DNA from: Candidatus Iainarchaeum sp.
GTDB taxonomy: Archaea > Iainarchaeota > Iainarchaeia > Iainarchaeales > CSSED10-239
Reading direction: 5' to 3'
NCBI GenBank assembly: GCA_037441475.1
Contig: JBBISB010000001.1
Coordinates: 637,465 to 669,464, forward strand
DNA length: 32,000 nt
Position numbers and translations under genes: made by a program. Of this stretch, positions 4,507 to 21,161 are shown in pieces. The notes under the pieces were generated by a model. It had not been told where the DNA came from. It saw nothing but the letters and a program-made list of their open reading frames with translations, and ran no database searches. The first letter of the stretch is position 1. Every line of letters begins with the position of its first letter.

Positions 4507-4514
4507 TTTTTAAA

Positions 4515-4694
4515 TCACTTTATAACTTGCAAAACTTCAATCTCAGTTTCTTTCTTAATAACAGTTGATATTGGCCTAAAAGTACCATCTATCTTAACTA
4601 AAACAATCTCTGGACTTATCTTTAAATCTATTAATATCTCTCTTAAGGTTTTATTAAAATCTTCCTTGGTTATTGTAATTTTTTTCTTAATCAT
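4515..4694 (-). CDS. 59-aa ThiS/MoaD-like beta-grasp protein lacking a C-terminal Gly-Gly
   Basis: Hand-translated; below the 60-aa cutoff of the ORF track. Sequence: MIKKKITITKEDFNKTLREILIDLKISPEIVLVKIDGTFRPISTVIKKETEIEVLQVIK*. The pattern 'pe.v.V.vNG..v.....i...d.ieil.vv' matches ThiS/MoaD, but it ends in VIK rather than GG. Its stop lies 8 nt upstream of the thiolase start. Confidence 0.45.
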   Translation of the reverse strand: MIKKKITITKEDFNKTLREILIDLKISPEIVLVKIDGTFRPISTVIKKETEIEVLQVIK

Positions 4695-4727
4695 ATTAAA
4701 TCAACAGGTTTTTAGTTATTTTTAATA

Positions 4728-4754
4728 AAAATAAGCTCAATTTAAGCTTATTTT
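4728..4754. repeat. 10-bp perfect inverted repeat AAAATAAGCT-n7-AGCTTATTTT in a divergent promoter region
   Basis: Read directly from the sequence. Lies between the ThiS-like/thiolase operon (-) and rpl15e (+). Confidence 0.6.
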
Positions 4755-4852
4755 TCCATCTAATATATAAATCTTTTGTTTCATAATTATATATTATTAT
4801 TTACTTTAAAATAATATAAGTTTAAAACAAATTAAAAAGAGTGTGATTTTTT

Positions 4853-10389: not shown

Positions 10390-11307
10390 ATGAGTGAAAA
10401 TACAAATATTTACGATTTAGCAATTGTTGGAGGAGGAGCAGCAGCAATGTCATGTGCCCTTTACTCAGGAAGATATAAAATGTCTACTGTAATGTTTACA
10501 GATTCATTTGGAGGAACAACAGCCTCAGCCCACATGATTTGGAACTACCCTGGTTTTTTAGAAATCTCAGGTATGGACCTAATGTCAAAAATGACAGAAC
10601 AGATAAACCACCTTAAGATACCAATAAAGTATGAAAAGGTAATAGATATTAAAAAAGAAAATAATTACTTTATTGTAAACTCAGATCAAGAGTCTTTAAA
10701 AGCAAAAAAAATATTAATAGCCATAGGTATGAAGAAAAGAACCCTTAACATACAAGACGAAGATAAGTTTTTAGGAAAAGGCGTGCATTACTGTGCTACT
10801 TGTGATGGTGCTTTCTACAGAGATAAAGTGGTTGGAGTTATTGGAGGGTCTGACGCTGCAGTAACAGCAGCTCTTTTACTTTCAGAGCTTGGAAAAAAAG
10901 TTTACTTAATCTATAGAGGAACTTCCTTAAGAGCAGAACCTATGTGGCTTGATTCTCTTTACAAACAAAAAAATGTTGAGATTCTTTATAACTCTGAACT
11001 TAAAAAGTTAGTTGGTAATGAAAAATTAGAAAAAATTATTCTTAAGGACGATAAAGAAATTGTTCTTGATGGTATCTTTATAGAGATTGGTCATGTTCCA
11101 AACACAGAGCTTTTAGAAAAATTAAACCTTACCTTAGATTCACATGGAGAGATAATTGTTGATAGAGAGCAAAGAACAAATATACCTGGTGTCTTTGCTG
11201 CTGGAGATTGTACAAACCAATCTGAGCTTAAACAAATAGTAACTTCAACCTCCCAAGGAGCAGTGGCTGCCTACCATATGTTCAAGGATTTAAAGGCTGA
11301 ACAATGA
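10390..11307 (+). CDS. trxB: thioredoxin-disulfide reductase
   Basis: FAD motif VGGGAAA, redox-active CATCDG, NAD(P)H motif GGSDAAVTAA, C-terminal FAAGDC. Confidence 0.9.
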   Translation: MSENTNIYDLAIVGGGAAAMSCALYSGRYKMSTVMFTDSFGGTTASAHMIWNYPGFLEISGMDLMSKMTEQINHLKIPIKYEKVIDIKKENNYFIVNSDQESLKAKKILIAIGMKKRTLNIQDEDKFLGKGVHYCATCDGAFYRDKVVGVIGGSDAAVTAALLLSELGKKVYLIYRGTSLRAEPMWLDSLYKQKNVEILYNSELKKLVGNEKLEKIILKDDKEIVLDGIFIEIGHVPNTELLEKLNLTLDSHGEIIVDREQRTNIPGVFAAGDCTNQSELKQIVTSTSQGAVAAYHMFKDLKAEQ

Positions 11308-11413
11308 CAGCTATACATAAAAAGATACCTTTATTAAACATACCATTAATCATATTATTAAGGGGTTTTTTAAAAACATTTTTTAAATAAAATAACATCT
11401 AATAAAAACAATA

Positions 11414-12109
11414 ATGAGGGGTTTTATGACCGATATAAATAGTAAAGTAAAAAAGTCTTTTGAGTCAATTAATAAGAATCTTTATAGGACAAACAAGGTT
11501 TTAGAGCTTTATAACCCATTACATGATATAATAAACAGCTTAATAAACGATTATAAAGAAATTTATGAAATAGGAAAGAAAAACGAACATTTAGAAAAAG
11601 AAATTGAAGAAGAAATTAAAAAAAGAGAGCTCATCTCTTTGTTTAAGAAAATGCATTTAACTGTTGCTGAAATTAAAGAGGAAATGGATATTTTCTATAA
11701 AGAGATGCAAGATGCAGATAAGTTTTTTGAAAAATACAGAACATACAGAACATATGTTTTTACAGATACTTTAAAGGCAAAAGACTATATCCAAAAACTA
11801 ATCTCTTCCTTTGACATTAAAGACTTTATTTTAAAGTTTAATGTTGTTGGAACCATTGATCTTTCAGACATTTCAACAAAAGTAAAAGGTAAAAAACAAG
11901 GTATTGATATAGTTGTTCCATCTGAAAACCTTGGTTTAATCTTTGATGAAATCTTAAAGTCTAAGACAGTTAAGTTTAGATTAGTATCTGATGCTATAAC
12001 CATCTATTTCGAGAAAGACATTATTCTTTATATAGAAGGACAAAGTAAGAAAATCAAGTTATGTGATATTGAAGCACAAAACTTTAATGCTAAGGTTATT
12101 GAAGATTAA
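11414..12109 (+). CDS. hypothetical coiled-coil protein
   Basis: ORF. A GAGGGG Shine-Dalgarno-like element favours the internal ATG at 11426 as the true start. No family recognised. Confidence 0.5.
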   Translation: MRGFMTDINSKVKKSFESINKNLYRTNKVLELYNPLHDIINSLINDYKEIYEIGKKNEHLEKEIEEEIKKRELISLFKKMHLTVAEIKEEMDIFYKEMQDADKFFEKYRTYRTYVFTDTLKAKDYIQKLISSFDIKDFILKFNVVGTIDLSDISTKVKGKKQGIDIVVPSENLGLIFDEILKSKTVKFRLVSDAITIYFEKDIILYIEGQSKKIKLCDIEAQNFNAKVIED

Positions 12110-12156
12110 AAAAAACCTTAGTCTTTTTATTCTTTTTTAAACATGATTATTTCATT

Positions 12157-12822
12157 ATGGATAGATTAATAACAATCATTGACCAACCAAACTGGAAACT
12201 ACTATTATTTGATTTAGTTAAATCAAATGATTTTGATATTTGGAACATTGATATAGTATCCTTAACAGAGCTTTATTTAAAAAAAATAATTCAGCTTAAA
12301 GAGGGTAATTTAATGGTTCCTGCAAATGCTCTTTTAGCTGCCAGTATTCTACTTAAAATAAAAACATATACCTTAAAGCTTACAAGCATAGAACCTGAAG
12401 AAGAATTAATAATACCAAAAGAAGAGGATCTTTTGCTTAATGCTTTAAATCTTGATAACCAAATAAGGAATAAAGAAGGACAAGTTTCTTTAGATGACTT
12501 AATAGAAGCCATTGATTCTATAATGAATAGACCAACTAAAAAGAACTTAGAAAAAATGATTAAGGAAAAAGCTGAAATTGAATTTATTCTTCCAAGGACT
12601 ATTGAAGACATTAACTACAGGATAGATGTTCTTTATACCTCTATTAAAAAACAAGCTGATGATGAAGGTTGTTTAACTTTTAAAAAACTTTTTTCAAATA
12701 ACATTAATAACTTTGATGTTGTAAACAATCTTTTTATACCTCTTTTATTTCTTCATCAAGAAGAAAAAATAAATGTTTGGCAAGATGACTTTTTTTCTGA
12801 AATTTTTATAAAAGTTATTTAA
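12157..12822 (+). CDS. scpA: segregation and condensation protein A (kleisin ScpA)
   Basis: N-terminal ScpA signature: NWKLLLFDLVKSNDFDIWNIDIVSLTELYLKKI. Length and helical C-terminus fit the family. Confidence 0.8.
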   Translation: MDRLITIIDQPNWKLLLFDLVKSNDFDIWNIDIVSLTELYLKKIIQLKEGNLMVPANALLAASILLKIKTYTLKLTSIEPEEELIIPKEEDLLLNALNLDNQIRNKEGQVSLDDLIEAIDSIMNRPTKKNLEKMIKEKAEIEFILPRTIEDINYRIDVLYTSIKKQADDEGCLTFKKLFSNNINNFDVVNNLFIPLLFLHQEEKINVWQDDFFSEIFIKVI

Positions 12823-12880
12823 TTTTTTCTTTTTAAGTAATTTTTTCTTTTTTCTTTGTTTAATCTTTTTTTTAAAAACT

Positions 12881-12923
12881 TTAACACATATTTATAAATA
12901 TTATGTATGTATATTTTATCTAT
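12881..12923 (+). promoter_or_regulatory. candidate archaeal promoter block (TATA core TTTATAAATA at 12891-12900), duplicated at 14793-14835
   Basis: The 43-nt block ttaacacatatttataaatattatgtatgtatattttatctat is 40/43 identical to the block upstream of the second adhesin gene. It lies 57 nt upstream of the ATG at 12957. Confidence 0.5.
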
Positions 12924-12956
12924 TTTGTAGTTATTATTTAAGAAGGACCTTGTCTT

Positions 12957-14741
12957 ATGAAAAAAATAAAAAAACTTATTTCTAAAAATAAAGATGTGAA
13001 AAAAGATATGAATCATAATAAAAAAGCTCAAGTCTCAATTGAGATGATTGTTATTTTAGGAATATTGATTTTAGGTGCTGTTATTTTAGCAACCTTTCTA
13101 GGTCTTTTTGGTGAAAAAACAACCCAGTTAACAGATCTTAATGAAGTTGCTGAAGGTACTTTTGATGGTTTTTTAAATAATTTAGGAAATTCTTCAGATG
13201 GAAGTTTCCCACAGCAGCCAGGAGGTACAGGAATAAACTATACTTTAACATTAATTCCAAACAATGCATCTTTTGGAACAGCAAACACCTCTGGTAGTTA
13301 TCAGTCAGGTTCTTTAGTAACTGTTACAGCAACTCCTAGTGCAGGTTATTCTTTTGTAAACTGGACAATCACTTCAACAGGTGTTGTTGCAAGTACAAAT
13401 GCAAGTTATTCTTTTACAATGCCAACAAACAATTTAGGTTTAACAGCTAATTTTTCTTCAAAAGCTCCTACCTTATATACCTTATCATTAGTTGAAAATC
13501 CAAATGAACCTAATGCAACATTGATTGGTGCTGGAAGTTATGCCGCAGGAACAGTAGTTTCAGTTTCCATAACCACTACAGGTTCAATATTTTTTAATAA
13601 TTGGACAAACCAAGGCGGAACTGTAGTAAGCTCTGTTGCAAATTTTAATTATACAATGCCTGCAAGTAATACAACATTAACAGCAAACTTTTCTACTGCT
13701 GCAACTATGGTTTCTTATTTCACTTCTACATGGGATACAACAAAAACAAGCCCAGGTTCTTCTAATAGTAATCAAATAAAATTACCATTAGTTCCAACAG
13801 GGACATATAACTTCGTTGTTTATTGGGGAGATAGAACTACAAACACTATAACCACTTGGAATTCTTCAAATGCAACCCATACATACTCTTCACCTGGAGA
13901 GTACACAATATATATCTCAGGTGTAATAAATGGATTTTCATTTAATAATTCTGGAGATAAATTAAAATTATTACGAATAGGTTCTTGGGGTCAATTAAAC
14001 TTAGGAAATACAGGTGGTTATTTCTATGGTGCACAAAATCTAGAAATAGATGCAGCAGATTCTCTTGATTTAAGAGGAACAACAAATTTATCTTCTATGT
14101 TTAGAGATTGTTCTTCAATTACAACTATTCCTTCATTAAATAAATGGGATGTTACATATGTAACTGATATGAGTTCAATGTTTTCATATGCAACTTCATT
14201 TAATGCTCCTTTAAATACTTGGGATGTTAGAAATGTAACAAATATGTCTGGGATGTTTAATGGAGCTACTTCTTTTAATCAATATATAAATGACTGGGAC
14301 ACTTCAAATGTTAGTGATATGCAATACATGTTTTTAGGTGCAGAAAAATTTAACCAGCCCTTAAACCAATGGAATGTTTCAAATGTTAGAAATATGGCTG
14401 GAATGTTTGCAAGTGCACAGAATTTTGATCAACCTTTAAACAGTTGGGATGTTTCGAAGGTAACGCTTATGGAGGGTATGTTTGGTAATGCGTATTCTTT
14501 TGATCAGCCTTTAGATAGATGGGATATTTCAAACGTTATTTTTATGGATTATTTTTTTGGAGATATAACTTTATCCACTAAAAATTATGATGCAATATTA
14601 AATTCTTGGGCTAATCAAAAATTAAAACAAAATGTTGTTTTTGATGCAGGGTATAGTAAGTATAGTTCTTCTGGTGAAGCTGCAAGAGATGTATTAATTA
14701 AAAACTATAATTGGACTATTAAAGATGGCGGTCTTCAGTAA
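12957..14741 (+). CDS. class III signal peptide (type IV pilin-like) surface protein with 2 InlB-B-repeat-like domains, a PKD-like module and DUF285/BspA-like 26-residue repeats
   Basis: ...NHNKKA|QVSIEMIVILGILILGAVILATFL is an archaeal prepilin-type signal. An alternative start is ATG 13008 (MNHNKKAQ). Repeats at 13239-13454 and 13476-13691 (...GYSFVNWT...LTANF). PKD-like module WGDRTTN...THTYSSPGEYTIYISG. About 7 repeats of W[DN]V.NVT.M..MF..A.SFNQPL. Confidence 0.85.
   Translation: MKKIKKLISKNKDVKKDMNHNKKAQVSIEMIVILGILILGAVILATFLGLFGEKTTQLTDLNEVAEGTFDGFLNNLGNSSDGSFPQQPGGTGINYTLTLIPNNASFGTANTSGSYQSGSLVTVTATPSAGYSFVNWTITSTGVVASTNASYSFTMPTNNLGLTANFSSKAPTLYTLSLVENPNEPNATLIGAGSYAAGTVVSVSITTTGSIFFNNWTNQGGTVVSSVANFNYTMPASNTTLTANFSTAATMVSYFTSTWDTTKTSPGSSNSNQIKLPLVPTGTYNFVVYWGDRTTNTITTWNSSNATHTYSSPGEYTIYISGVINGFSFNNSGDKLKLLRIGSWGQLNLGNTGGYFYGAQNLEIDAADSLDLRGTTNLSSMFRDCSSITTIPSLNKWDVTYVTDMSSMFSYATSFNAPLNTWDVRNVTNMSGMFNGATSFNQYINDWDTSNVSDMQYMFLGAEKFNQPLNQWNVSNVRNMAGMFASAQNFDQPLNSWDVSKVTLMEGMFGNAYSFDQPLDRWDISNVIFMDYFFGDITLSTKNYDAILNSWANQKLKQNVVFDAGYSKYSSSGEAARDVLIKNYNWTIKDGGLQ
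13256..13416 (+). repeat. near-identical block A shared by the two adhesin paralogs (partner 15177-15337)
   Basis: 157/161 nt identical by hand alignment, while the sequence immediately upstream of the block is unalignable. Confidence 0.85.
13845..13961 (+). repeat. perfectly identical block B shared by the two adhesin paralogs (partner 16750-16866)
   Basis: 117/117 nt identical. The extended segment 13821-13970 vs 16726-16875 has only 4 mismatches, and the flanks are clearly more diverged. Confidence 0.9.
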
Positions 14742-14744
14742 TCC

Positions 14745-14752
14745 TTTTTTTT
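14745..14752 (+). terminator. oligo-T tract (T8) immediately after the first adhesin gene
   Basis: taatccTTTTTTTTaaaa starts 4 nt after the stop. Oligo-T tracts are the usual archaeal termination signal. Followed by a fresh promoter block. Confidence 0.4.
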
Positions 14753-14760
14753 AAAAATAA

Positions 14761-14792
14761 TTAGTAATTATCTTATTTAGTAATTATCTTAT
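14761..14792. repeat. perfect 16-nt tandem duplication (ttagtaattatcttat x2)
   Basis: Read directly from the sequence. Sits immediately 5' of the duplicated promoter block. Confidence 0.9.
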
Positions 14793-14835
14793 TTAACACA
14801 TGTTTATAAATATTATGTATTAATATTTTATCTAT
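14793..14835 (+). promoter_or_regulatory. candidate archaeal promoter block (TATA core TTTATAAATA at 14803-14812), copy of 12881-12923
   Basis: 40/43 identity to the upstream copy. The 15-mer atgtttataaatatt (14800-14814) also recurs exactly at 24901-24915, upstream of the GT2 gene. Confidence 0.5.
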
Positions 14836-14874
14836 ATACATCCTTATGTTATAAAATTATAAGCGTCTTTAATT

Positions 14875-17673
14875 ATGAAGAAAATAAAAAATAAATTAGT
14901 TATTAAAAAAAAAGAGAAGAAAGATATGAATAAAAATAAAAAAGCCCAGGTCTCAATAGAGATGATAATTATTTTATCTGTTTTAATTTTAGGGGCAGTA
15001 GTATTTGCATCTTTACTTCTAGGCTTTTTTAATAAAAGTGTTGATAGAAACACAGATGTTGATGATGTAGCAAGTAATACTGTTAATAGCTTCATTAAAG
15101 ATCTTGTAAATTATAATGATAGTAATAATCAAACCACTCCAAGTCCAACACCAATATTTTATAATCTAGTATTAACTCCAAACAATCCTTCTTTTGGAAC
15201 AGCAAACACCTCTGGTAGTTATCAGTCAGGGTCTTTAGTAACTGTTACAGCAACTCCTAGTGCAGGTTATTCTTTTGTAAACTGGACAATCACTTCAACA
15301 GGTGTGGTTGCAAGTACAAATGCAAGTTATTCTTTTAATATGCCTTCAAGTAATTTAAGCTTATCAGCAAACTTTGTTTTAGCCCCTCCTACAAACTGTA
15401 CTTTAACCTTAAACAGAAATCCTGTTTCAGGTGGAACAGTTTCAGGCGCAGGGACTTTTCCTTGTAATTCTTCTGTGACAGCAACAGCAACTCCTGCAAT
15501 TAACTATGCTTTCACTAATTGGACAACAACAAGTGGGACTGTTACAACAAACCATTATACTTTTAATTTAAATTCTTCTCAAACATTAACAGCAAACTTT
15601 ACACCTTCTGCTTATAATCTTAATTTAACAAAATCAGGAAGTGGAACTGGAACTGTTACAAGTTCTCCTGTTGGTATATCTTGTGGTTCAAGTTGTACTA
15701 CAGCATCTTATGCTTTTCCTGTTAATCAACTTGTTACTTTAACAGCAACTGTTGTTAGTGGACATACTTTTGCAGGTTGGTCAGGGGATTGTTCAGGCAC
15801 AAATCAAACCTGTACTGTTACAATGTCTCAAGCAAGAAATGTAACTGCAACTTTTAATCTTCCAAACATATATTTATTATCTGTATCTAAAGAAAATCCG
15901 CTTGGTGGCTGGGTTGTAAGTTCTGGACCTACCCTAGGTATTAGTTGTGGTTCTGATTGTTCTGAAATTTATTCTTTAGGAGTTAATGTTTCTTTAACAA
16001 CAACAAATCTTCTTCCAGGTTATACTTTTGTTGAATGGAGAGATGCTTGTACAGGATCTGCAGCTATCTGTTCATTTACTATGGATGGTCCAAAATATGT
16101 AACTGCTGTTTTTGCTCCTATTAATCATACTTTAAATGTAAATAAAGTAAATCCTTCTTACGGTCTTGTACAGACTGTTTCTCCATCTACAGGAATTATC
16201 TGTGGTCTTGATTGCTCTGAAAGTTATTTTTATGGAACTAATGTTACTTTAAATGCTTCTGGTTTAAGTGGGGGAACTTTTGCAAGATGGTCTGGTGCTG
16301 GTTGTTCAGGCACAGATAACTGTATAGTTACAATGGATGCTGCAAAAACTGTAACTGCAACTTTTAATGCTCCTGTTTCAAATTATTTATTAACTGTTAA
16401 TAAGAATGGTACTGGTTCAGGAAGAGTTGTAAGTTCTACAATAGGTATTGATTGTGGAAGTACATGTTCTGCAAATTATGCTCAAGGAACAGTTATTAGT
16501 TTAACAGCTAATCCTGATGCAGGAAATACTTTTACTGGATGGTTAGGAGATTGTTCTGGAACTGGTCAATGTTTTGTGACTATGGATTCTGCAAAAAATG
16601 TTACTGCTGTATTTAATGCTACTAATTCATTCATTTCTAAATGGGTTACAAATAATTCTGAAGAAAGTAATTCTAATCAAATAAAATTACCGCTTGTTTC
16701 TTCTGGAACTTATAAATTTACAGTATATTGGGGAGATGGAACTACAAATACTATAACCACTTGGAATTCTTCAAATGCAACCCATACATACTCTTCACCT
16801 GGAGAGTACACAATATATATCTCAGGTGTAATAAATGGATTTTCATTTAATAATTCTGGAGATAAACTTAAATTAACTCAAATTTCAAAGTGGGGACCAT
16901 TAAGACTTGGAAATACAGGTTCTTATTTCTATGGTGCACAAAACCTAACAATAACTGCAACAGATGTTTTAGATTTAACTGGTACTACAAATTTATCTTT
17001 AATGTTTAGTAACTGTTCTTCAATAACAACAATTCCTTCTATTAATAGTTGGAATGTTTCAAATGTTACAAATATGGGATTTATGTTTTATTATGCAAGT
17101 CAGTTTAATAGTCCTTTAAATAATTGGAATGTTTCAAATGTAACGAATATGCAGAGTATGTTTTATGGTGCAACTAATTTCAACCAACCAATCGGAGATT
17201 GGAATGTTTCAAATGTAACGAATATGAGTAATATGTTTTCTTATGCAACTGCTTTCAACCAACCAATCGGTTCTTGGAATGTTTCAAAAGTAACTACAAT
17301 GCAAAGAATGTTTTTTCGTGCTTCTAATTTTAATAGACCTGTAGGAGATTGGAATGTTTCAAGTGTGAATAATATGGAAGGTATGTTTTTGAATGCATCT
17401 AGCTTTAATCAACCTCTTGGTAATTGGAATCCAATAAATGTAAATAATTTTTCAATGTTTATTTCTAATACCAGGTGTTGTATTTTATCTACTGCAAATT
17501 ATGATAATTTATTAATTGGATGGTCTTCTAAAAATTTGCAAAGAAATGTTAGATTAGATGTAGGTACAAGATATAGCTCAGCAGGTGAAACTGCAAGACA
17601 ATCAATTATAACTAACTATAATTGGTATATTCATGATAATGGTAAGCAGTGGTTAAAAATATTTATAAATTAA
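14875..17673 (+). CDS. class III signal peptide (type IV pilin-like) giant surface protein with 6 InlB-B-repeat-like domains (4 cysteine-containing), a PKD-like module and DUF285/BspA-like repeats
   Basis: ...NKNKKA|QVSIEMIIILSVLILGAVVFASLLL. Alternative start ATG 14926. Repeats span 15160-16617; the last four each contain GIxCGxxC...GW.G.C.G...C.VTM....VTA.F. Then WGDGTTN...THTYSSPGEYTIYISG and about 8 WNVSNVTNM..MF..A..FNQPI repeats. Confidence 0.85.
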   Translation: MKKIKNKLVIKKKEKKDMNKNKKAQVSIEMIIILSVLILGAVVFASLLLGFFNKSVDRNTDVDDVASNTVNSFIKDLVNYNDSNNQTTPSPTPIFYNLVLTPNNPSFGTANTSGSYQSGSLVTVTATPSAGYSFVNWTITSTGVVASTNASYSFNMPSSNLSLSANFVLAPPTNCTLTLNRNPVSGGTVSGAGTFPCNSSVTATATPAINYAFTNWTTTSGTVTTNHYTFNLNSSQTLTANFTPSAYNLNLTKSGSGTGTVTSSPVGISCGSSCTTASYAFPVNQLVTLTATVVSGHTFAGWSGDCSGTNQTCTVTMSQARNVTATFNLPNIYLLSVSKENPLGGWVVSSGPTLGISCGSDCSEIYSLGVNVSLTTTNLLPGYTFVEWRDACTGSAAICSFTMDGPKYVTAVFAPINHTLNVNKVNPSYGLVQTVSPSTGIICGLDCSESYFYGTNVTLNASGLSGGTFARWSGAGCSGTDNCIVTMDAAKTVTATFNAPVSNYLLTVNKNGTGSGRVVSSTIGIDCGSTCSANYAQGTVISLTANPDAGNTFTGWLGDCSGTGQCFVTMDSAKNVTAVFNATNSFISKWVTNNSEESNSNQIKLPLVSSGTYKFTVYWGDGTTNTITTWNSSNATHTYSSPGEYTIYISGVINGFSFNNSGDKLKLTQISKWGPLRLGNTGSYFYGAQNLTITATDVLDLTGTTNLSLMFSNCSSITTIPSINSWNVSNVTNMGFMFYYASQFNSPLNNWNVSNVTNMQSMFYGATNFNQPIGDWNVSNVTNMSNMFSYATAFNQPIGSWNVSKVTTMQRMFFRASNFNRPVGDWNVSSVNNMEGMFLNASSFNQPLGNWNPINVNNFSMFISNTRCCILSTANYDNLLIGWSSKNLQRNVRLDVGTRYSSAGETARQSIITNYNWYIHDNGKQWLKIFIN

Positions 17674-17722
17674 ACTATCTTAATATATATAGATATTTTT
17701 TTTAAAAAAAAGATGATTATAT

Positions 17723-18196
17723 ATGATAAACAAAAAAGGACAAGTCTCTATTGAGTTAATTATTTTAGTTGGTATGCTTATTATAGGTGCTGTTGTTTTA
17801 TCTGTTACTTTGATTAGTTCATATAAAAAAAATATAGAAACAACAGATGATACTGCAAAAAAACAAAGTAACCTTATAGATAATTTTGTAGAAGATCTTG
17901 ATGATGTTCAATCCGGAAACTCTGGAGGACAGATAAATCAATTTAGTGTTACTCTTACTAATCCACGTCCAATTAGTTATCCTCCTGGAAATGTATCTTT
18001 TAATATTTCATATGATTATAATGTAGGTCCAGTTACTTGTAATTGGGATTTAAGTTCTATGACATATGGAGAGCAAAATTTCCAAGGTTGTTCTACTTTA
18101 CGTAATTTAGGTTTAGGAGAATATACTGCAGATTACACAGTTACAGATGGTTCTAGCACTAGAACAGGGACTGTGTCCTTTAGAGTTAATAATTAA
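17723..18196 (+). CDS. small type IV pilin-like protein (class III signal peptide) with a PKD/Ig-like C-terminal domain
   Basis: MINKKG|QVSIELIILVGMLIIGAVVLSVTLI has a short canonical leader. The C-terminus ...CNWDL...LGLGEYTADYTVTDGSSTRTGTVSFRV resembles a PKD fold. A TTTATAAAT core lies 53 nt upstream. Confidence 0.8.
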   Translation: MINKKGQVSIELIILVGMLIIGAVVLSVTLISSYKKNIETTDDTAKKQSNLIDNFVEDLDDVQSGNSGGQINQFSVTLTNPRPISYPPGNVSFNISYDYNVGPVTCNWDLSSMTYGEQNFQGCSTLRNLGLGEYTADYTVTDGSSTRTGTVSFRVNN

Positions 18197-18210
18197 ATTA
18201 AAGATTTTTT

Positions 18211-18675
18211 ATGGACCAAACAAGTAGTGATTACCTTAAGCAAGCAATAGAGGCAATCCTCTTTTTATCCCCAAAATCTATTTCTTTATCAAAGATATAT
18301 GCCTCTTTTCCAAACATCCCAAAGAACATAATAGATATCCAGATAGATGACTTGATAAACAGTTATCAAAAAAGACAAACATCTTTAGAAATTGTAAAAG
18401 ATAACAATAAACTTGAAATTGTTGTAAAACCAGAGTTTCATTCCTTTAACATCTTTGCAACAGGAACAACTCTCTCAAAATCAGAGCTTAAGACCTTAGC
18501 CTTCATCTCTTTAAATGCCCCAGTAGAGCAAGCAAAGATAAGTAAGAAAAGACCTTTTGAAGATCTAAAGATATTAAAAGACCTAGATCTAATATCTATT
18601 GAAAAGAAGGGACGAAAGAATATCTTACAAACAACCAAAAAATTTTCTCTTCTCTTTAAAAATAAGAAAAAGTAA
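18211..18675 (+). CDS. scpB: segregation and condensation protein B (ScpB)
   Basis: N-terminal signature LKQAIEAILFLSPKSISLSKI (family consensus 'EAlLFas.epls'). The size fits a single or double wHTH protein. Starts 14 nt after the pilin-like gene stop. Confidence 0.8.
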   Translation: MDQTSSDYLKQAIEAILFLSPKSISLSKIYASFPNIPKNIIDIQIDDLINSYQKRQTSLEIVKDNNKLEIVVKPEFHSFNIFATGTTLSKSELKTLAFISLNAPVEQAKISKKRPFEDLKILKDLDLISIEKKGRKNILQTTKKFSLLFKNKKK

Positions 18676-18713
18676 CCTTTAAATAAATATAACTCTTATA
18701 TTTATTATATCTT

Positions 18714-21161
18714 ATGAATAAAACTATTTATGTGGTGAAAAATATTATGAAAAATAAATATATATTATTAATTTTACTTTTAGTTCTTTTAGTACCAAAC
18801 ATCTTTGCATTGGTACCAAATGCAAATATGAAGATATTTGCTGTTGCTGGAGATAAAGGAGCACAAGATGCAACCCTTAACATAAAGATTGTTCCTGGTG
18901 CCGGAAAGATATTCTCTTCAATAGATGAATCAATAGTAGGTTCATCCACCCAAGAGTCTTTTAAAAATGCAATTTCTGTTGCAAATAAAAATATTGGAAA
19001 CAACATACGTTCAAAGTATGATTTTACAGTTGATATTGAATCAAGTGCATACAGTATAGATGGGCCATCAGCAGGAGGAGCAATGGCTCTTTTAATAATT
19101 TCAATGTTTAAAGATACTCCAGTAAGTAATAAAGTAAGTATGACAGGAACAATTACAGCTGATGGTTATATAGGGGATGTTGGTGGAGTTTATCAAAAAA
19201 CAAAAAAAGCAGCTGAAGTAGGTATAAAGCTTTTCTTTGTTCCACAAGGTAACAGAACACAAGTTATTAATGAAGGTGGAAATATTCAGCAAATTGACCT
19301 TATTGAGTATGCTTACAAGGAATGGGGACTTAAGATAATAGAAGTTTCAACCATGGATGAAATCTTAGCTTACGCTTTTAGAGACATTGATTCAATAGAT
19401 ATAAATACTACTCAAAAAGAAAAAGTTGATGATTTTATTTATACCTCTATAAGTTATTCAAAAGCAGTTGAACCTTTTAAAGATGTTACTTATAATTACA
19501 TAAAACAAACTGATGAAAAGTTAGTTAATGTTAAAAAACACTTAGCTTCTTCAAGTATAAAAGATACTGAGGTTTTACAAAATCTATTATCTACCATAAA
19601 CTATTCTGAAGAACTTTTAAATGTTGCAAACAAATATTATCAATACAATTATTTTTATTCTGCAGCAAACAATTCATTTTTAGCATATGTAAATGTTATT
19701 ACTGTAGATGAGATTATAACAAACCCATCCATCTTAGCAGACTCTTCAATAATCTTTAACTTAAGGATTAAAGAGCTTGAAGAAAAGATAACCTTAACTG
19801 AAAATAGATCCTACAACTGTTCTCTTGAAAACCTAGAGTGGTGTGTTGGTGCAAGACAAAGAGTTACATGGGCAAGAGATAAACTTGAAAAAATAAGTGT
19901 GACTTCCACTTCTAATAATTTTACAAAAATACAAGATTATGCTTATGCTGTTGCATGGACAGATATTGCAAATAGTTTTTTAGACCTCTCAATTACAAAA
20001 ACAAATATTTATTTTGTAGAGTCAGGATATTTTAAAAAACAAGCACAAGATAATATAATCTCTGTTGAAAATCAATTGATATTAGTTGCACCAGAAATAG
20101 CAACTAGTGAAGACTTAAGAAGAAGACTTGATGCTGCTAAAAGAAACTATGATAGAGAATGGTATGTGACCTCTCTTTATGATTCAGCAACTGCTTTAGC
20201 TGTTATAAAAACACAAGAGGAAAATAAAAATACAATTTCAACAACAGCATTTACTGCAAAGTATGATCTTTTAGCCTCAAAGTTAAGATCTCAAGCAGCA
20301 ATGAATAATGAAAATAATGTTTGGTCAAAGACTTTCTTAGACCATGCCATCTATTATTATAATGCATATAATGAAAATAAAATGAAAGATGAAGAAAAAG
20401 CAAAATCAAATATGAATGTTTCAAACTCAATCTTAAATTTTTCAAACTACTTATATGATGTTGAGACTTTAGTTTTAGATTATTACCTTAATACAGATAT
20501 TGATGCTTTAATAGTTGATATTACAAGTTCAACAGAAGGTTCAGTTATAATTGTTAATAAAAATAATGAACCTATAAAACAAGTTTCTTCACAGAATGTA
20601 TATGTTTACAGTAAAGAAAGAAAAGACTTTAATCTTTATTTAATTGTTGCAGCTTTGTTCTTAATGATTGTAGCTATTATTGTTGAGGTTGAAAGGTTTA
20701 AAAGATACCATTCAAAGGAAGGAATAATAAAGCAAATAGGTTACTTAGATGAAAAGCTTCTTGATGGAAAGATTAGTTCTTTTACCTATAAGGAAATGAG
20801 AGAGAAGTATCTTTTAGAGCTTGAAAAAATAAAATCTAAAGAAGCATCTAAAAAGAAAGAGTTAAAGAAAACAGAAGATGTTTTAACCTCTGCAGATGAA
20901 CTTGAAAAAAGAGTAATTGATAAACAAATAGAGGAACTTGAAAGAAGAAGAAAAGAAATTTCTCTTAGAGGAAAAAGTGAATCTATTAAGAGTGTTAAAG
21001 AGATTGTTTCAAACATCAAGCCTACAGTTAAGGAAGATGTTAAAAAACAAGAAACTTTTAAAAAACCTTCTTTAAAAAAAGAAACTTCTTCTAAAAAAGA
21101 AGAAATTAAAAAAAAAGAAACTAAAAAGAAAAAGGATCTTTCAATTAAGAAAGGTCTTTAA
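18714..21161 (+). CDS. membrane-anchored Lon-type (S16) serine protease domain protein without an AAA+ module
   Basis: N-terminal hydrophobic signal/anchor KYILLILLLVLLVPNIFA (likely start ATG 18747). Lon proteolytic core with the catalytic Ser in SIDGPSAGGAMAL and the catalytic Lys in GGVYQKTKKAAEVG. About 430 aa helical region, a second TM (LYLIVAALFLMIVAIIVEV), then a K/E-rich tail. Confidence 0.8.
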   Translation: MNKTIYVVKNIMKNKYILLILLLVLLVPNIFALVPNANMKIFAVAGDKGAQDATLNIKIVPGAGKIFSSIDESIVGSSTQESFKNAISVANKNIGNNIRSKYDFTVDIESSAYSIDGPSAGGAMALLIISMFKDTPVSNKVSMTGTITADGYIGDVGGVYQKTKKAAEVGIKLFFVPQGNRTQVINEGGNIQQIDLIEYAYKEWGLKIIEVSTMDEILAYAFRDIDSIDINTTQKEKVDDFIYTSISYSKAVEPFKDVTYNYIKQTDEKLVNVKKHLASSSIKDTEVLQNLLSTINYSEELLNVANKYYQYNYFYSAANNSFLAYVNVITVDEIITNPSILADSSIIFNLRIKELEEKITLTENRSYNCSLENLEWCVGARQRVTWARDKLEKISVTSTSNNFTKIQDYAYAVAWTDIANSFLDLSITKTNIYFVESGYFKKQAQDNIISVENQLILVAPEIATSEDLRRRLDAAKRNYDREWYVTSLYDSATALAVIKTQEENKNTISTTAFTAKYDLLASKLRSQAAMNNENNVWSKTFLDHAIYYYNAYNENKMKDEEKAKSNMNVSNSILNFSNYLYDVETLVLDYYLNTDIDALIVDITSSTEGSVIIVNKNNEPIKQVSSQNVYVYSKERKDFNLYLIVAALFLMIVAIIVEVERFKRYHSKEGIIKQIGYLDEKLLDGKISSFTYKEMREKYLLELEKIKSKEASKKKELKKTEDVLTSADELEKRVIDKQIEELERRRKEISLRGKSESIKSVKEIVSNIKPTVKEDVKKQETFKKPSLKKETSSKKEEIKKKETKKKKDLSIKKGL

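What the first reader, a model, noticed from the sequence alone, without database searches (positions are those of the whole stretch)
12157..18675. scpA and scpB are separated by the 5.4-kb adhesin cluster
The ScpA kleisin (12157-12822) and ScpB (18211-18675) are partners of SMC. They are commonly adjacent and co-transcribed in bacteria and in many archaea. Here three surface-protein genes with their own duplicated promoter blocks lie between them, and scpB starts only 14 nt after the small pilin-like gene. The inserted genes look noticeably less AT-rich by eye than the flanks. This looks like an insertion into a conserved gene pair. It would place scpB under the control of a pilin promoter, or require an internal promoter.
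Basis: partly seen in the sequence, partly recalled or inferred. Interest (0 to 1): 0.6.

Follow-up and report, generated by a model that had tools for sequence, protein, structure and literature searches.

The report
Variable pilin-adhesin slot splitting scpA-scpB
In this tiny-genome DPANN archaeon (genus Candidatus Forterrea) the chromosome-condensation genes scpA and scpB are separated by three pilus-type surface-protein genes, an old inherited arrangement at a site where relatives keep changing their adhesin genes, so the split is real but largely ordinary.

Summary
scpA (12157-12822) and scpB (18211-18675) are real, single-copy genes. Three co-oriented genes with archaeal class III (type IV pilin) signal peptides lie between them. 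Two of these are tandem DUF285/InlB-B-repeat adhesin paralogs with a duplicated promoter block. The 14-nt spacer before scpB is correct.

In this family, genera g3 and g4 have scpA and scpB 11-18 nt apart. A strongly supported clade (g1 = Forterrea, plus g2 and g5) always has at least one pilin gene between them. So the split is one old event, followed by growth of the cassette in place in Forterrea. It is not a recent import: third-position GC and synonymous codon usage are native. The higher GC comes only from a Thr/Ser/Ala/Gly-rich protein composition.

Cassette content differs in every species, and even between about 95%-identical strains. One relative keeps a pseudo-scpA 3' relic plus a second promoter copy, which shows local segmental duplication.

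Outside the family, scpA and scpB are mostly unlinked. Published counts put scpB remote from scpA in 61 of 160 archaeal species that have both.

scpB is probably co-transcribed with the last cassette gene. This is inferred; no RNA data were available.

This scan has already described the same slot in related genomes (e1-3199921, e1-3200611, e1-2517663).

The parts
11414..12109 (+). hyp231. A conserved hypothetical protein and the left neighbour of scpA in genera g1, g2 and g5 only.
   Evidence: No family match: the only Pfam hit (Mod_r, 18 bits) is sub-threshold, and there is no PDB hit. Orthologs (49-84% identity) sit upstream of scpA in all g1/g2/g5 loci and are missing from the g3/g4 loci.
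12157..12822 (+). scpA (kleisin subunit of SMC-ScpAB), 221 aa.
   Evidence: PF02616 at 40.5 bits, with N- and C-terminal stretches both matched. Single copy in the genome. 77-82% identical to the orthologs of G001-G004 and 61-63% to those of G005 and G006.
12823..12878 (+). T-rich tract after scpA (T6, T6, T6, then T8A5 at 12866-12878). Looks like an archaeal oligo-T terminator or intergenic punctuation.
   Evidence: Sequence. The T7+A4+ motif is about 7-fold enriched in intergenic DNA of this genome. A terminator function is inferred.
12880..12923 (+). Promoter block, copy 1 (TTTAACACATATTTATAAATA...). Its TATA-like element precedes the first adhesin gene.
   Evidence: 93% identical to 14792-14835. 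The same block follows scpA in G001, and collinear homology with G003 runs through it to window 12976. Promoter activity is inferred.
12957..14741 (+). adh594. A pilin-signal adhesin with 2 Flg_new_2 repeats plus DUF285/PARCEL repeats. The probable true start is the ATG at 13008.
   Evidence: PF03382 at 189.9 bits and PF18998 at 91.6 bits. The class III motif KKAQVSIE starts at ORF residue 22.
14745..14757 (+). T8A5 punctuation after adh594.
14792..14835 (+). Promoter block, copy 2.
   Evidence: (family D14, 93% identity)
14875..17673 (+). adh932. A tandem paralog of adh594 with 6 Flg_new_2 repeats plus DUF285/PARCEL repeats. The probable true start is the ATG at 14926.
   Evidence: PF18998 at 207.5 bits (6 stretches) and PF03382 at 192.8 bits. 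Paralogous blocks are 76-90% identical to adh594 at offsets of 1918-1921 and 2905 nt.
17696..17711 (+). T8A8 punctuation after adh932, immediately upstream of the pilin gene.
17723..18196 (+). pil157. A small class III signal-peptide pilin whose C-terminal half looks Ig/PKD-like by eye (not tested). It is the family-conserved pilin linked to scpA.
   Evidence: Starts MINKKGQVSIELIILVG.... It is the reciprocal best hit of the pilins next to scpA in G005 and G006 (between scpA and scpB) and in g4 genomes G014, G015, G017, G018 and G019 (directly upstream of scpA).
18197..18210 (+). 14-nt spacer between pil157 and scpB (ATTAAAGATTTTTT). It holds a T6 run but no T-run/A-run punctuation.
18211..18675 (+). 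scpB (kite subunit), 154 aa.
   Evidence: PF04079 at 72.3 bits. Single copy. 83-90% identical to the orthologs of G001-G004 and 67-69% to those of G005 and G006.
18714..21161 (+). Lon-C (S16) domain membrane protein. It is the conserved right neighbour of scpB across the family.
   Evidence: PF05362 at 64 bits. It is directly adjacent to scpB in 18 of the 19 family loci where this can be seen.

Best explanation
The interval between the scpA stop and the scpB start is an old, inherited slot for pilus-type surface proteins in one lineage of Iainarchaeota/Diapherotrites (DPANN). A small type IV pilin-like gene came to lie between the formerly adjacent scpA and scpB in the common ancestor of genera g1 (Candidatus Forterrea), g2 and g5. 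In Forterrea the slot then grew and diversified in place. This happened by tandem segmental duplication seeded at the promoter block and the signal-peptide 5' ends, by repeat-domain expansion, and by recombinational replacement of adhesin ectodomains. The result is a different set of pilin-anchored adhesins in each species and strain. In this genome the likely transcription units are scpA, adh594 and adh932, each followed by T-run/A-run punctuation, and then pil157-scpB (possibly continuing into lon). On this reading scpB is read from the promoter of the last cassette gene. The shown steps are gene identities, synteny, phylogeny, native composition and the duplication relics. The inferred steps are transcript structure, pilus assembly and a host-attachment role.
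For: (1) Synteny. The backbone trxB-hyp231-scpA-[cassette]-scpB-lon is present in all g1/g2/g5 loci. Cassette gene products (aa) are: G000 594+932+157; G001 259+177+581; G003 127+730+258; G005 899; G006 266; G007 71+73; G010 81; G013 81 plus 3 non-pilin genes. In g3 and g4, scpA and scpB are 11-18 nt apart. (2) A tree of ScpA+ScpB+Lon puts g1+g2+g5 in one clade with 100/100 support, with g3 and g4 outside it, so one insertion suffices. (3) DNA homology with four congeners ends at window 12827-12976 and resumes at 18179-18205 for three of them (at 18308 for G006, whose contig ends inside scpB). Flanking proteins of the closest congeners (G001, G003) are 68-90% identical, but cassette proteins are at most about 41% identical over partial lengths. 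(4) Composition is native: GC3 is 0.12-0.16 against a genome mean of 0.19, and RSCU correlation is 0.946 and 0.966 (55th and 81st percentile). T+S+A+G makes up 38-39% of the two adhesins and 31% of pil157, against 22% genome-wide, which explains the high GC2. (5) Duplication mechanism. The promoter block and 5' coding sequence are duplicated in G000. G001 carries a pseudo-scpA 3' relic (ScpA residues 129-221, 77% identical to its own ScpA, with stops) plus a second promoter block inside its cassette. (6) Strain-level turnover. Metagenome loci L035, L036 and L037 have flanks 94-96% identical, but the central adhesin's C-terminal 1.4 kb is non-homologous between L035 and L037, and L036 has an extra adhesin. 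(7) Pilus machinery is present: 5 T2SSE-type ATPase matches, 3 prepilin-peptidase (A24) matches and 11 class III proteins in the genome. (8) Co-transcription. The junction from the last cassette gene to scpB is 9-25 nt in 8 of 9 Forterrea-lineage loci, although the upstream genes' 3' ends are non-homologous. This is the one junction in the cluster without T-run/A-run punctuation.
Against: No transcript data were available. The spacer holds a T6 run, which can terminate archaeal RNA polymerase. A TATA-like TTAATAATTAAATTA overlaps the pil157 stop about 26 nt before the scpB ATG, so an scpB promoter of its own cannot be excluded in a 72% AT genome. G001 has a 205-nt junction. The base of the family tree is an open polytomy, so adjacency in g3/g4 as the ancestral state rests on parsimony plus mixed outgroups. 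pil157 orthologs lie upstream of scpA in part of g4, so a local gene-order swap rather than an insertion from elsewhere may have created the split. The relatives are MAGs, and two congeners have contig breaks inside the cassette.
Confidence: 0.72

Rival explanations
1. Recent horizontal insertion. On this reading the 5.4-kb adhesin cluster is a foreign island that recently landed between scpA and scpB in this genome.
For: Overall GC of the cluster is slightly higher than its flanks. DUF285/PARCEL and InlB B-repeat modules are typically bacterial families, so the domain modules may ultimately have a bacterial origin.
Against: GC3 and RSCU are native, and the GC excess is only at codon position 2. 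There is no integrase, tRNA or flanking direct repeat. Every congener and two sister genera already have pilin-type genes at the same site. The promoter block after scpA is conserved between species.
Confidence: 0.05
2. Neutral gene-order drift with independent expression. On this reading the slot is simply a permissive intergenic site, scpB has its own promoter, and the pilin genes have no regulatory relationship with it.
For: scpA and scpB are unlinked in most other families of the order and in 61 of 160 archaeal species with both genes (PMC7055376). Six archaeal ScpA/ScpB pairs did not bind each other in vitro (same paper). In g5, a conserved 66-99-nt non-coding region precedes scpB whatever gene lies upstream, which suggests an scpB promoter there. 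G018, G013 and L039 hold non-pilin cargo in the same slot. A TATA-like element sits about 26 nt before the scpB ATG.
Against: In Forterrea the junction is only 9-25 nt in 5 of 6 distinct last-gene types. About 32% of tandem junctions genome-wide are 30 nt or shorter, so a binomial estimate gives p of about 0.015; this is rough, because the lineages are related. A promoter embedded in non-homologous 3' coding ends is unlikely to be re-created after each replacement.
Confidence: 0.2
3. Assembly or binning artefact. On this reading the cassette was mis-joined between scpA and scpB in a metagenome-assembled genome.
For: The genome is a MAG. Repeat-rich adhesin genes break contigs in two congeners, G002 and G004.
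Against: The window lies in a 671-kb contig. The same flanks bracket a cassette in at least 9 independently assembled loci. One is the curated complete genome CP045477 of Candidatus Forterrea multitransposorum.
Confidence: 0.01

Closest known systems
Bacterial scpA-scpB operon (Bacillus subtilis type) and archaeal scpA/scpB arrangements surveyed by Jeon et al. 2020 (IUCrJ, PMC7055376)
   Same: The two proteins (kleisin ScpA and kite ScpB) are the same, and an SMC gene is present elsewhere in the genome. In sister genera g3 and g4 the two genes are juxtaposed as in bacteria.
   Different: Here 5.4 kb and three unrelated genes separate them. smc is also unlinked (contig C2), unlike the smc-scpA adjacency reported for most Euryarchaeota. 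Separation of scpB from scpA is itself common in archaea, at 61 of 160 species.
Archaeal type IV pilin-like proteins with class III signal peptides (for example Methanococcus maripaludis Epd pilins, Sulfolobus Aap/Ups pilins). This comparison is from established knowledge.
   Same: The N-terminus is a short basic leader, then a [GA]|Q cleavage-type motif, then a hydrophobic helix. Prepilin peptidase and assembly ATPase genes are present.
   Different: Two of the three proteins carry 550-900-aa adhesin ectodomains (InlB B-repeat plus DUF285/PARCEL). The genes are not next to the assembly machinery, which lies at C1:483646-490586.
Integration or variability hotspots between conserved core genes in prokaryotic genomes, and variable surface-protein loci such as Mycoplasma vsp/vlp families. 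This comparison is from established knowledge.
   Same: The boundaries between two core genes are fixed. Content differs per species and strain. Conserved 5' promoter and signal-peptide sequences are reused by paralogs. Tandem duplication and recombination are evident.
   Different: No recombinase, invertible element or silent-cassette archive was found. Turnover is seen between lineages, not shown within a clone.
Localized recombination-driven variation in Candidatus Forterrea multitransposorum (Probst and Banfield 2018, PMC5905446)
   Same: It is the same genus. That paper reports highly localized strain variation explained by homologous recombination. This matches the adhesin-module replacement seen here between loci about 95% identical.
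   Different: The paper does not mention this locus, pilins or scpA/scpB. Whether its SNP hot spots include this slot was not determined.

Membership tests
SMC-ScpAB complex genes (ScpA kleisin, ScpB kite) | ScpA matches the SMC_ScpA profile over both the N-terminal and the C-terminal winged-helix parts | tested here: met
   PF02616 at 40.5 bits against a cut-off of 24.6, in 2 stretches. The genome search matched profile positions 1-68 and 126-231. Scores are below the NCBIfam equivalog cut-offs (56.6 against 234), as expected for a divergent DPANN sequence.
SMC-ScpAB complex genes (ScpA kleisin, ScpB kite) | ScpB matches the SMC_ScpB profile (tandem winged-helix) | tested here: met
   PF04079 at 72.3 bits against a cut-off of 27.4, covering profile positions 2-150 of 160. 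TIGR00281 scores 55.8, below its cut-off of 89.2.
SMC-ScpAB complex genes (ScpA kleisin, ScpB kite) | An SMC ATPase is encoded in the same genome | tested here: met
   A 1084-aa open frame at C2:43470-46706 matches TIGR02169 at both ends (275.9 and 230.4 bits). Each hit is below the equivalog cut-off of 729.
SMC-ScpAB complex genes (ScpA kleisin, ScpB kite) | ScpA physically binds an ScpB dimer | not testable with these tools
   Six archaeal pairs failed to bind in vitro (PMC7055376).
scpA-scpB operon (juxtaposed, co-transcribed pair) | The two genes are adjacent on one strand with no intervening gene | tested here: not met
   There is a 5388-nt gap holding three genes. The feature is met in genera g3 and g4 of the same family, with 11-18 nt gaps.
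Archaeal type IV pilin-like (class III signal peptide) proteins | An N-terminal basic leader, a [GA]-Q-x-[ST]-x-E type motif and a hydrophobic helix of about 20 residues | tested here: met
   The motifs are KKAQVSIE, KKAQVSIE and KKGQVSIE, each followed by a hydrophobic stretch. The PF04021 hits are sub-threshold, at 17.3 and 19.5 bits against 23.7.
Archaeal type IV pilin-like (class III signal peptide) proteins | A prepilin peptidase and an assembly ATPase are encoded in the genome | tested here: met
   PF01478 gives 3 matches (best 52.8 bits). PF00437 gives 5 matches (best 168.6 bits).
Archaeal type IV pilin-like (class III signal peptide) proteins | The proteins are processed and assembled into a surface filament | not testable with these tools
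   This needs proteomics or microscopy.
Horizontally acquired genomic island | Atypical composition or codon usage, a mobility gene, or att-like direct repeats or a tRNA at the border | tested here: not met
   GC3 and RSCU are native. The Pfam searches of the three cassette proteins gave no integrase or transposase domain. No Rfam family, tRNA included, matches in 11000-20000. No flanking repeats were found.
Variable surface-protein locus or hotspot between core genes | Fixed core-gene boundaries with non-orthologous content in close relatives | tested here: met
   The homology breakpoints are at the scpA stop and the scpB start. Gene sets differ in 7 congeners and differ between loci about 95% identical.
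Programmed antigenic or phase variation system | A dedicated recombinase, invertible promoter, silent cassettes or hypermutable repeats that switch expression within a clone | not tested
   None was noticed in the window. Within-population read data were not available.

The most novel reading that the evidence does not exclude
The scpA-scpB interval in Forterrea may be a dedicated expression site for host-attachment pili. A promoter conserved just after scpA, together with reusable signal-peptide 5' ends, would let adhesin modules be duplicated and swapped by homologous recombination. The obligatory read-through into scpB-lon would keep the site transcribed, and would tie kite-subunit expression to pilin expression. 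This would be a DPANN analogue of bacterial surface-antigen variation loci.
Probability: 0.15. Interest if true: 0.55.

Novelty: new member of a known kind. Interest (0 to 1): 0.3.

Why it matters
DPANN archaea such as Forterrea are thought to depend on host cells, so their pilin-anchored adhesins are the likeliest contact molecules. This locus offers a well-bounded, fast-evolving adhesin site with conserved flanks. Those flanks are useful as PCR or metagenomic anchors for tracking strain-level adhesin diversity. For SMC biology it adds a case where a juxtaposed archaeal scpA-scpB pair was split without loss of either gene. This fits published doubts that archaeal ScpB is an obligate ScpA partner. 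It does not reveal a new mechanism.

Tried and rejected

(2) Promoter modelling. An EM motif search on 325 upstream regions converged on a T-run/A-run motif, not a BRE/TATA model. Positional profiles show a Shine-Dalgarno-like G signal at -12 to -8 and only a weak T-then-A signal at -31 to -19. This is not good enough to score an scpB promoter in a 72% AT genome, so I dropped it.

(3) Foreign-origin hypothesis. Rejected on GC3 and RSCU.

(4) Replication origin near the locus. The cumulative GC skew of contig C1 has its minimum near window 2.5-7.5 kb. However, the curve is flat over 250 kb, no cdc6 gene is in the window, and the orthologous locus in the complete Forterrea genome is at 575-580 kb of 840 kb. 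I do not rely on it.

(5) The resemblance between ScpA's NKEGQVSLD and the pilin motif NKKGQVSIE (family D12). The ScpA motif is conserved across the whole family and weakly in the outgroups. It is therefore intrinsic to ScpA and the resemblance is taken as coincidence.

(6) Genome-wide search for the promoter block. Only the two local copies were found. Other hits were low-complexity AT-rich matches or other class III 5' ends.

(7) hyp231 and the G001 259-aa orphan gene. No family or structure matches were found.

(8) Rfam scan of 11000-20000. Nothing was found.

Full report
**What is in the sequence**

The window is G000:C1:637465-669464 of a 769-kb, two-contig genome with 28.4% GC. Close relatives found with ScpB include the complete genome of Candidatus Forterrea multitransposorum (CP045477). 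Others are MAGs labelled Candidatus Iainarchaeum or Diapherotrites. The organism is therefore a DPANN archaeon of the Forterrea genus.

- ORF 12157-12822 is ScpA: PF02616 at 40.5 bits, with N- and C-terminal parts both matched.
- ORF 18211-18675 is ScpB: PF04079 at 72.3 bits.
- Both genes are single-copy.
- An SMC-like 1084-aa frame lies on the other contig.

Three + strand genes lie between scpA and scpB.

- adh594 is at 12957-14741. It has 2 InlB-B-type repeats plus DUF285/PARCEL repeats.
- adh932 is at 14875-17673. It has 6 such repeats plus DUF285/PARCEL repeats.
- pil157 is at 17723-18196.

All three carry an archaeal class III (type IV prepilin) N-terminus, K-K-[AG]-Q-V-S-I-E followed by a hydrophobic helix. 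In the two adhesins this follows a 17-codon Lys-rich extension, so their real starts are probably 13008 and 14926. The genome has 11 such proteins, 3 prepilin-peptidase matches and 5 T2SSE-type ATPase matches.

The duplicated promoter block is real. Positions 12880-12923 and 14792-14835 are 93% identical and contain TTTATAAATA. There are two copies only. The pil157-to-scpB spacer is 14 nt.

**Composition**

The cluster is slightly more GC-rich than the genome's genes on average. adh594 and adh932 have GC 0.32 and pil157 has 0.306. The gene mean is 0.287, SD 0.035.

- All of the excess is at codon position 2 (z = 2.6 and 3.4 for the adhesins, 1.7 for pil157).
- GC3 is lower than average: 0.12-0.16 against 0.19.
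- Thr+Ser+Ala+Gly make up 38-39% of the adhesins and 31% of pil157, against 22% genome-wide.
- The adhesins' synonymous codon usage correlates with the genome's at 0.946 and 0.966, the 55th and 81st percentile of long genes.

It reflects protein composition, not foreign origin.

**Synteny**

I located ScpA and ScpB in 40 relatives, fetched the loci and annotated them by BLAST against the window's proteins.

Across genera g1 (Forterrea), g2 and g5 the backbone is trxB-hyp231-scpA-[cassette]-scpB-lon. The table gives the cassette in each genome.

| Genome (genus) | Cassette between scpA and scpB |
|---|---|
| G000 (g1) | 594+932+157 aa |
| G001 (g1) | 259+177+581 aa |
| G003 (g1) | 127+730+258 aa |
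| G004 (g1) | like G003, with a contig break inside the cassette |
| G002 (g1) | contig break; class III gene at the scpA-side edge, 218-aa ORF with no class III motif on the scpB side |
| G005 (g1) | one 899-aa gene |
| G006 (g1) | one 266-aa gene |
| G007 (g2) | two mini-pilins, 71 and 73 aa |
| G010 (g5) | one 81-aa pilin |
| G013 (g5) | 81-aa pilin plus three other genes, one with a sub-threshold UPF0175 match (26.9 vs 27.9 bits) |

Every cassette holds genes with the class III motif, and most of their genes carry it. The exceptions are G001's 259-aa gene, G002's 218-aa ORF, one of G007's two mini-pilins (which the motif scan missed), and G013's three extra genes.

In genera g3 and g4, nine genomes have scpA and scpB 11-18 nt apart. 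G018 (g4) has an independent 2.1-kb insert without pilin genes.

A maximum-likelihood tree of ScpA+ScpB+Lon places g1+g2+g5 in one clade with 100/100 support, with g3 and g4 outside it. One old event therefore explains the split, plus one extra event in G018.

**Beyond the family**

The pair is not conserved in the wider order. Of 19 genomes from other families:

- 1 has the genes adjacent;
- 3 have them 0.5-2.1 kb apart;
- 5 have them 5-123 kb apart;
- 9 have them on different contigs;
- 1 (G039, 67% complete) gave no match to either gene.

Jeon et al. 2020 counted scpB remote from scpA in 61 of 160 archaeal species that have both genes. They also found no ScpA-ScpB binding for six archaeal pairs (PMC7055376).

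**How sharp and how dynamic the slot is**

Collinear DNA homology between the window and four congeners ends at 12827-12976, just past the scpA stop. In G003 it includes the promoter region. It resumes at 18179-18205, which is 6-32 nt before the scpB ATG, in G001, G003 and G005. In G006, whose contig ends inside scpB, it resumes at 18308.

Flanking proteins are 68-90% identical to G001 and G003. Cassette proteins are at most about 41% identical, over partial lengths.

The promoter block that follows scpA is also present in G001, and collinear homology with G003 runs through it to 12976. G001 additionally carries a relic inside its cassette. It is the last 279 nt of scpA (residues 129-221, 77% identical to its own ScpA, interrupted by stops), followed by a second promoter block. 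A 259-aa orphan gene lies between the two copies. That is direct evidence for segmental duplication, or a Campbell-type event, at the scpA-proximal edge. It parallels the promoter-plus-5'-coding duplication that produced adh594 and adh932 in this window.

Metagenome contigs add strain-level turnover.

- L035, L036 and L037 have flanks 94-96% identical to each other.
- L035 and L037 lose homology over about 1.4 kb, the C-terminal two-thirds of the central adhesin.
- L036 has an extra adhesin gene.
- A g5-like contig (L039) has an 82-aa pilin plus seven other genes in the slot.

This fits the localized, recombination-driven variation reported for Candidatus Forterrea multitransposorum (PMC5905446). 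That paper does not mention this locus.

**An unexplained detail**

pil157 is the reciprocal best hit of pilins that lie directly upstream of scpA in five g4 genomes: G014, G015, G017, G018 and G019. The pilin-scpA linkage may therefore predate the split. If so, the event may have been a local swap of gene order rather than an arrival from elsewhere. Parsimony on the tree slightly favours two independent gains. I cannot decide between these.

**Who transcribes scpB**

No RNA data could be obtained. The indirect evidence is as follows.

- scpA, adh594 and adh932 are each followed by a T8A5-8 motif, at 12866-12878, 14745-14757 and 17696-17711. This motif is about 7-fold enriched in intergenic DNA. 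It is compatible with archaeal oligo-T termination, which is established knowledge.
- The pil157-scpB junction has only a T6 run.
- In 8 of 9 Forterrea-lineage loci the junction between the last cassette gene and scpB is 9-25 nt. This holds although the 3' ends of those genes are non-homologous. A promoter re-created inside each new 3' end is unlikely.
- In g5, by contrast, a conserved 66-99-nt non-coding stretch precedes scpB whatever gene lies upstream, which suggests an scpB promoter there.

I therefore favour pil157-scpB co-transcription in this genome, possibly continuing into lon after a 38-nt gap. My confidence in this step alone is about 60%. Against it stand the T6 run and a TATA-like TTAATAATTAAATTA about 26 nt before the ATG.

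**Verdict**

The split is real and lineage-specific at family level. It is old, compositionally native, and part of a variable surface-protein slot. This scan has already met the same slot in relatives: mini-pilins (e1-3199921), a five-gene cassette with a toxin-antitoxin pair (e1-3200611) and the 899-aa adhesin (e1-2517663). My independent synteny analysis agrees with those notes. It adds the phylogenetic polarity, the composition test, the pseudo-scpA duplication relic and the strain-level module replacement.

Separation of scpA and scpB is common in archaea, so the SMC angle is ordinary. The adhesin-slot angle is a modestly interesting new example of a known kind.

Noticed in passing
window 17723-18196; L011:5271-6602, L013:641-1939, L031:3262-3693, L032:3170-3658, L033:3161-3586: The pil157 pilin family is linked to scpA on either side. 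It lies between scpA and scpB in Forterrea, but directly upstream of scpA in five g4 genomes, and these are reciprocal best hits. No full-length ortholog was found elsewhere in the family's genomes. It is unresolved whether this reflects a gene-order swap or repeated gain next to scpA.
   Followed up: partly
L004:5273-5551 (G001, = CAZQEL010000003.1): A pseudo-scpA 3' fragment (ScpA residues 129-221, with stops) and a second copy of the post-scpA promoter block lie inside the cassette of a congener. They flank a 259-aa orphan gene. This is a footprint of segmental duplication or single-crossover integration.
   Followed up: yes
window 11414-12109: hyp231 is a 231-aa protein with no family or PDB match. 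It is the conserved upstream neighbour of scpA in exactly the clade (g1, g2, g5) where scpA and scpB are split, and it is absent from the g3/g4 loci. Its left-flank change therefore falls on the same branch as the split.
   Followed up: partly
window 12469-12494 versus 13017-13042, 14935-14960 and 17729-17754: The ScpA middle region encodes NKEGQVSLD, which resembles the pilin cleavage motif NKK[AG]QVSIE at DNA level (73-81% over 26 nt). The ScpA motif is conserved across the family and weakly in the outgroups, so the resemblance is probably coincidental.
   Followed up: yes
window about 4507-4852; contig C1 about 640-645 kb: The cumulative GC skew of the 671-kb contig has its minimum here. 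This coincides with a switch of gene strand (- genes before 4506, + genes after 4853) and a 346-nt intergenic region with 21% GC. No cdc6/orc1 gene is in the window, so this is a weak candidate for a replication landmark only.
   Followed up: partly
whole genome; window 12866-12878, 14745-14757, 17696-17711: T-run followed by A-run (T7+A4+) is the most enriched intergenic motif in this genome, about 7-fold over coding DNA. It is found in about half to two-thirds of tandem junctions longer than 80 nt, but in only 5 of 138 junctions of 30 nt or less. It could be a terminator or a TATA-like element.
   Followed up: partly
window 18714-21161: An 815-aa protein with a Lon C-terminal (S16) protease domain near its N-terminus and no AAA+ module is the invariant downstream neighbour of scpB throughout the family. 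It is often only 0-75 nt away or overlapping.
   Followed up: no
L035:6770-8185 versus L037; L036:1-4423: Metagenome contigs of Forterrea multitransposorum-like strains have flanks 94-96% identical. They carry non-homologous C-terminal portions of the central adhesin, and one has an extra adhesin gene. This indicates strain-level module replacement.
   Followed up: partly
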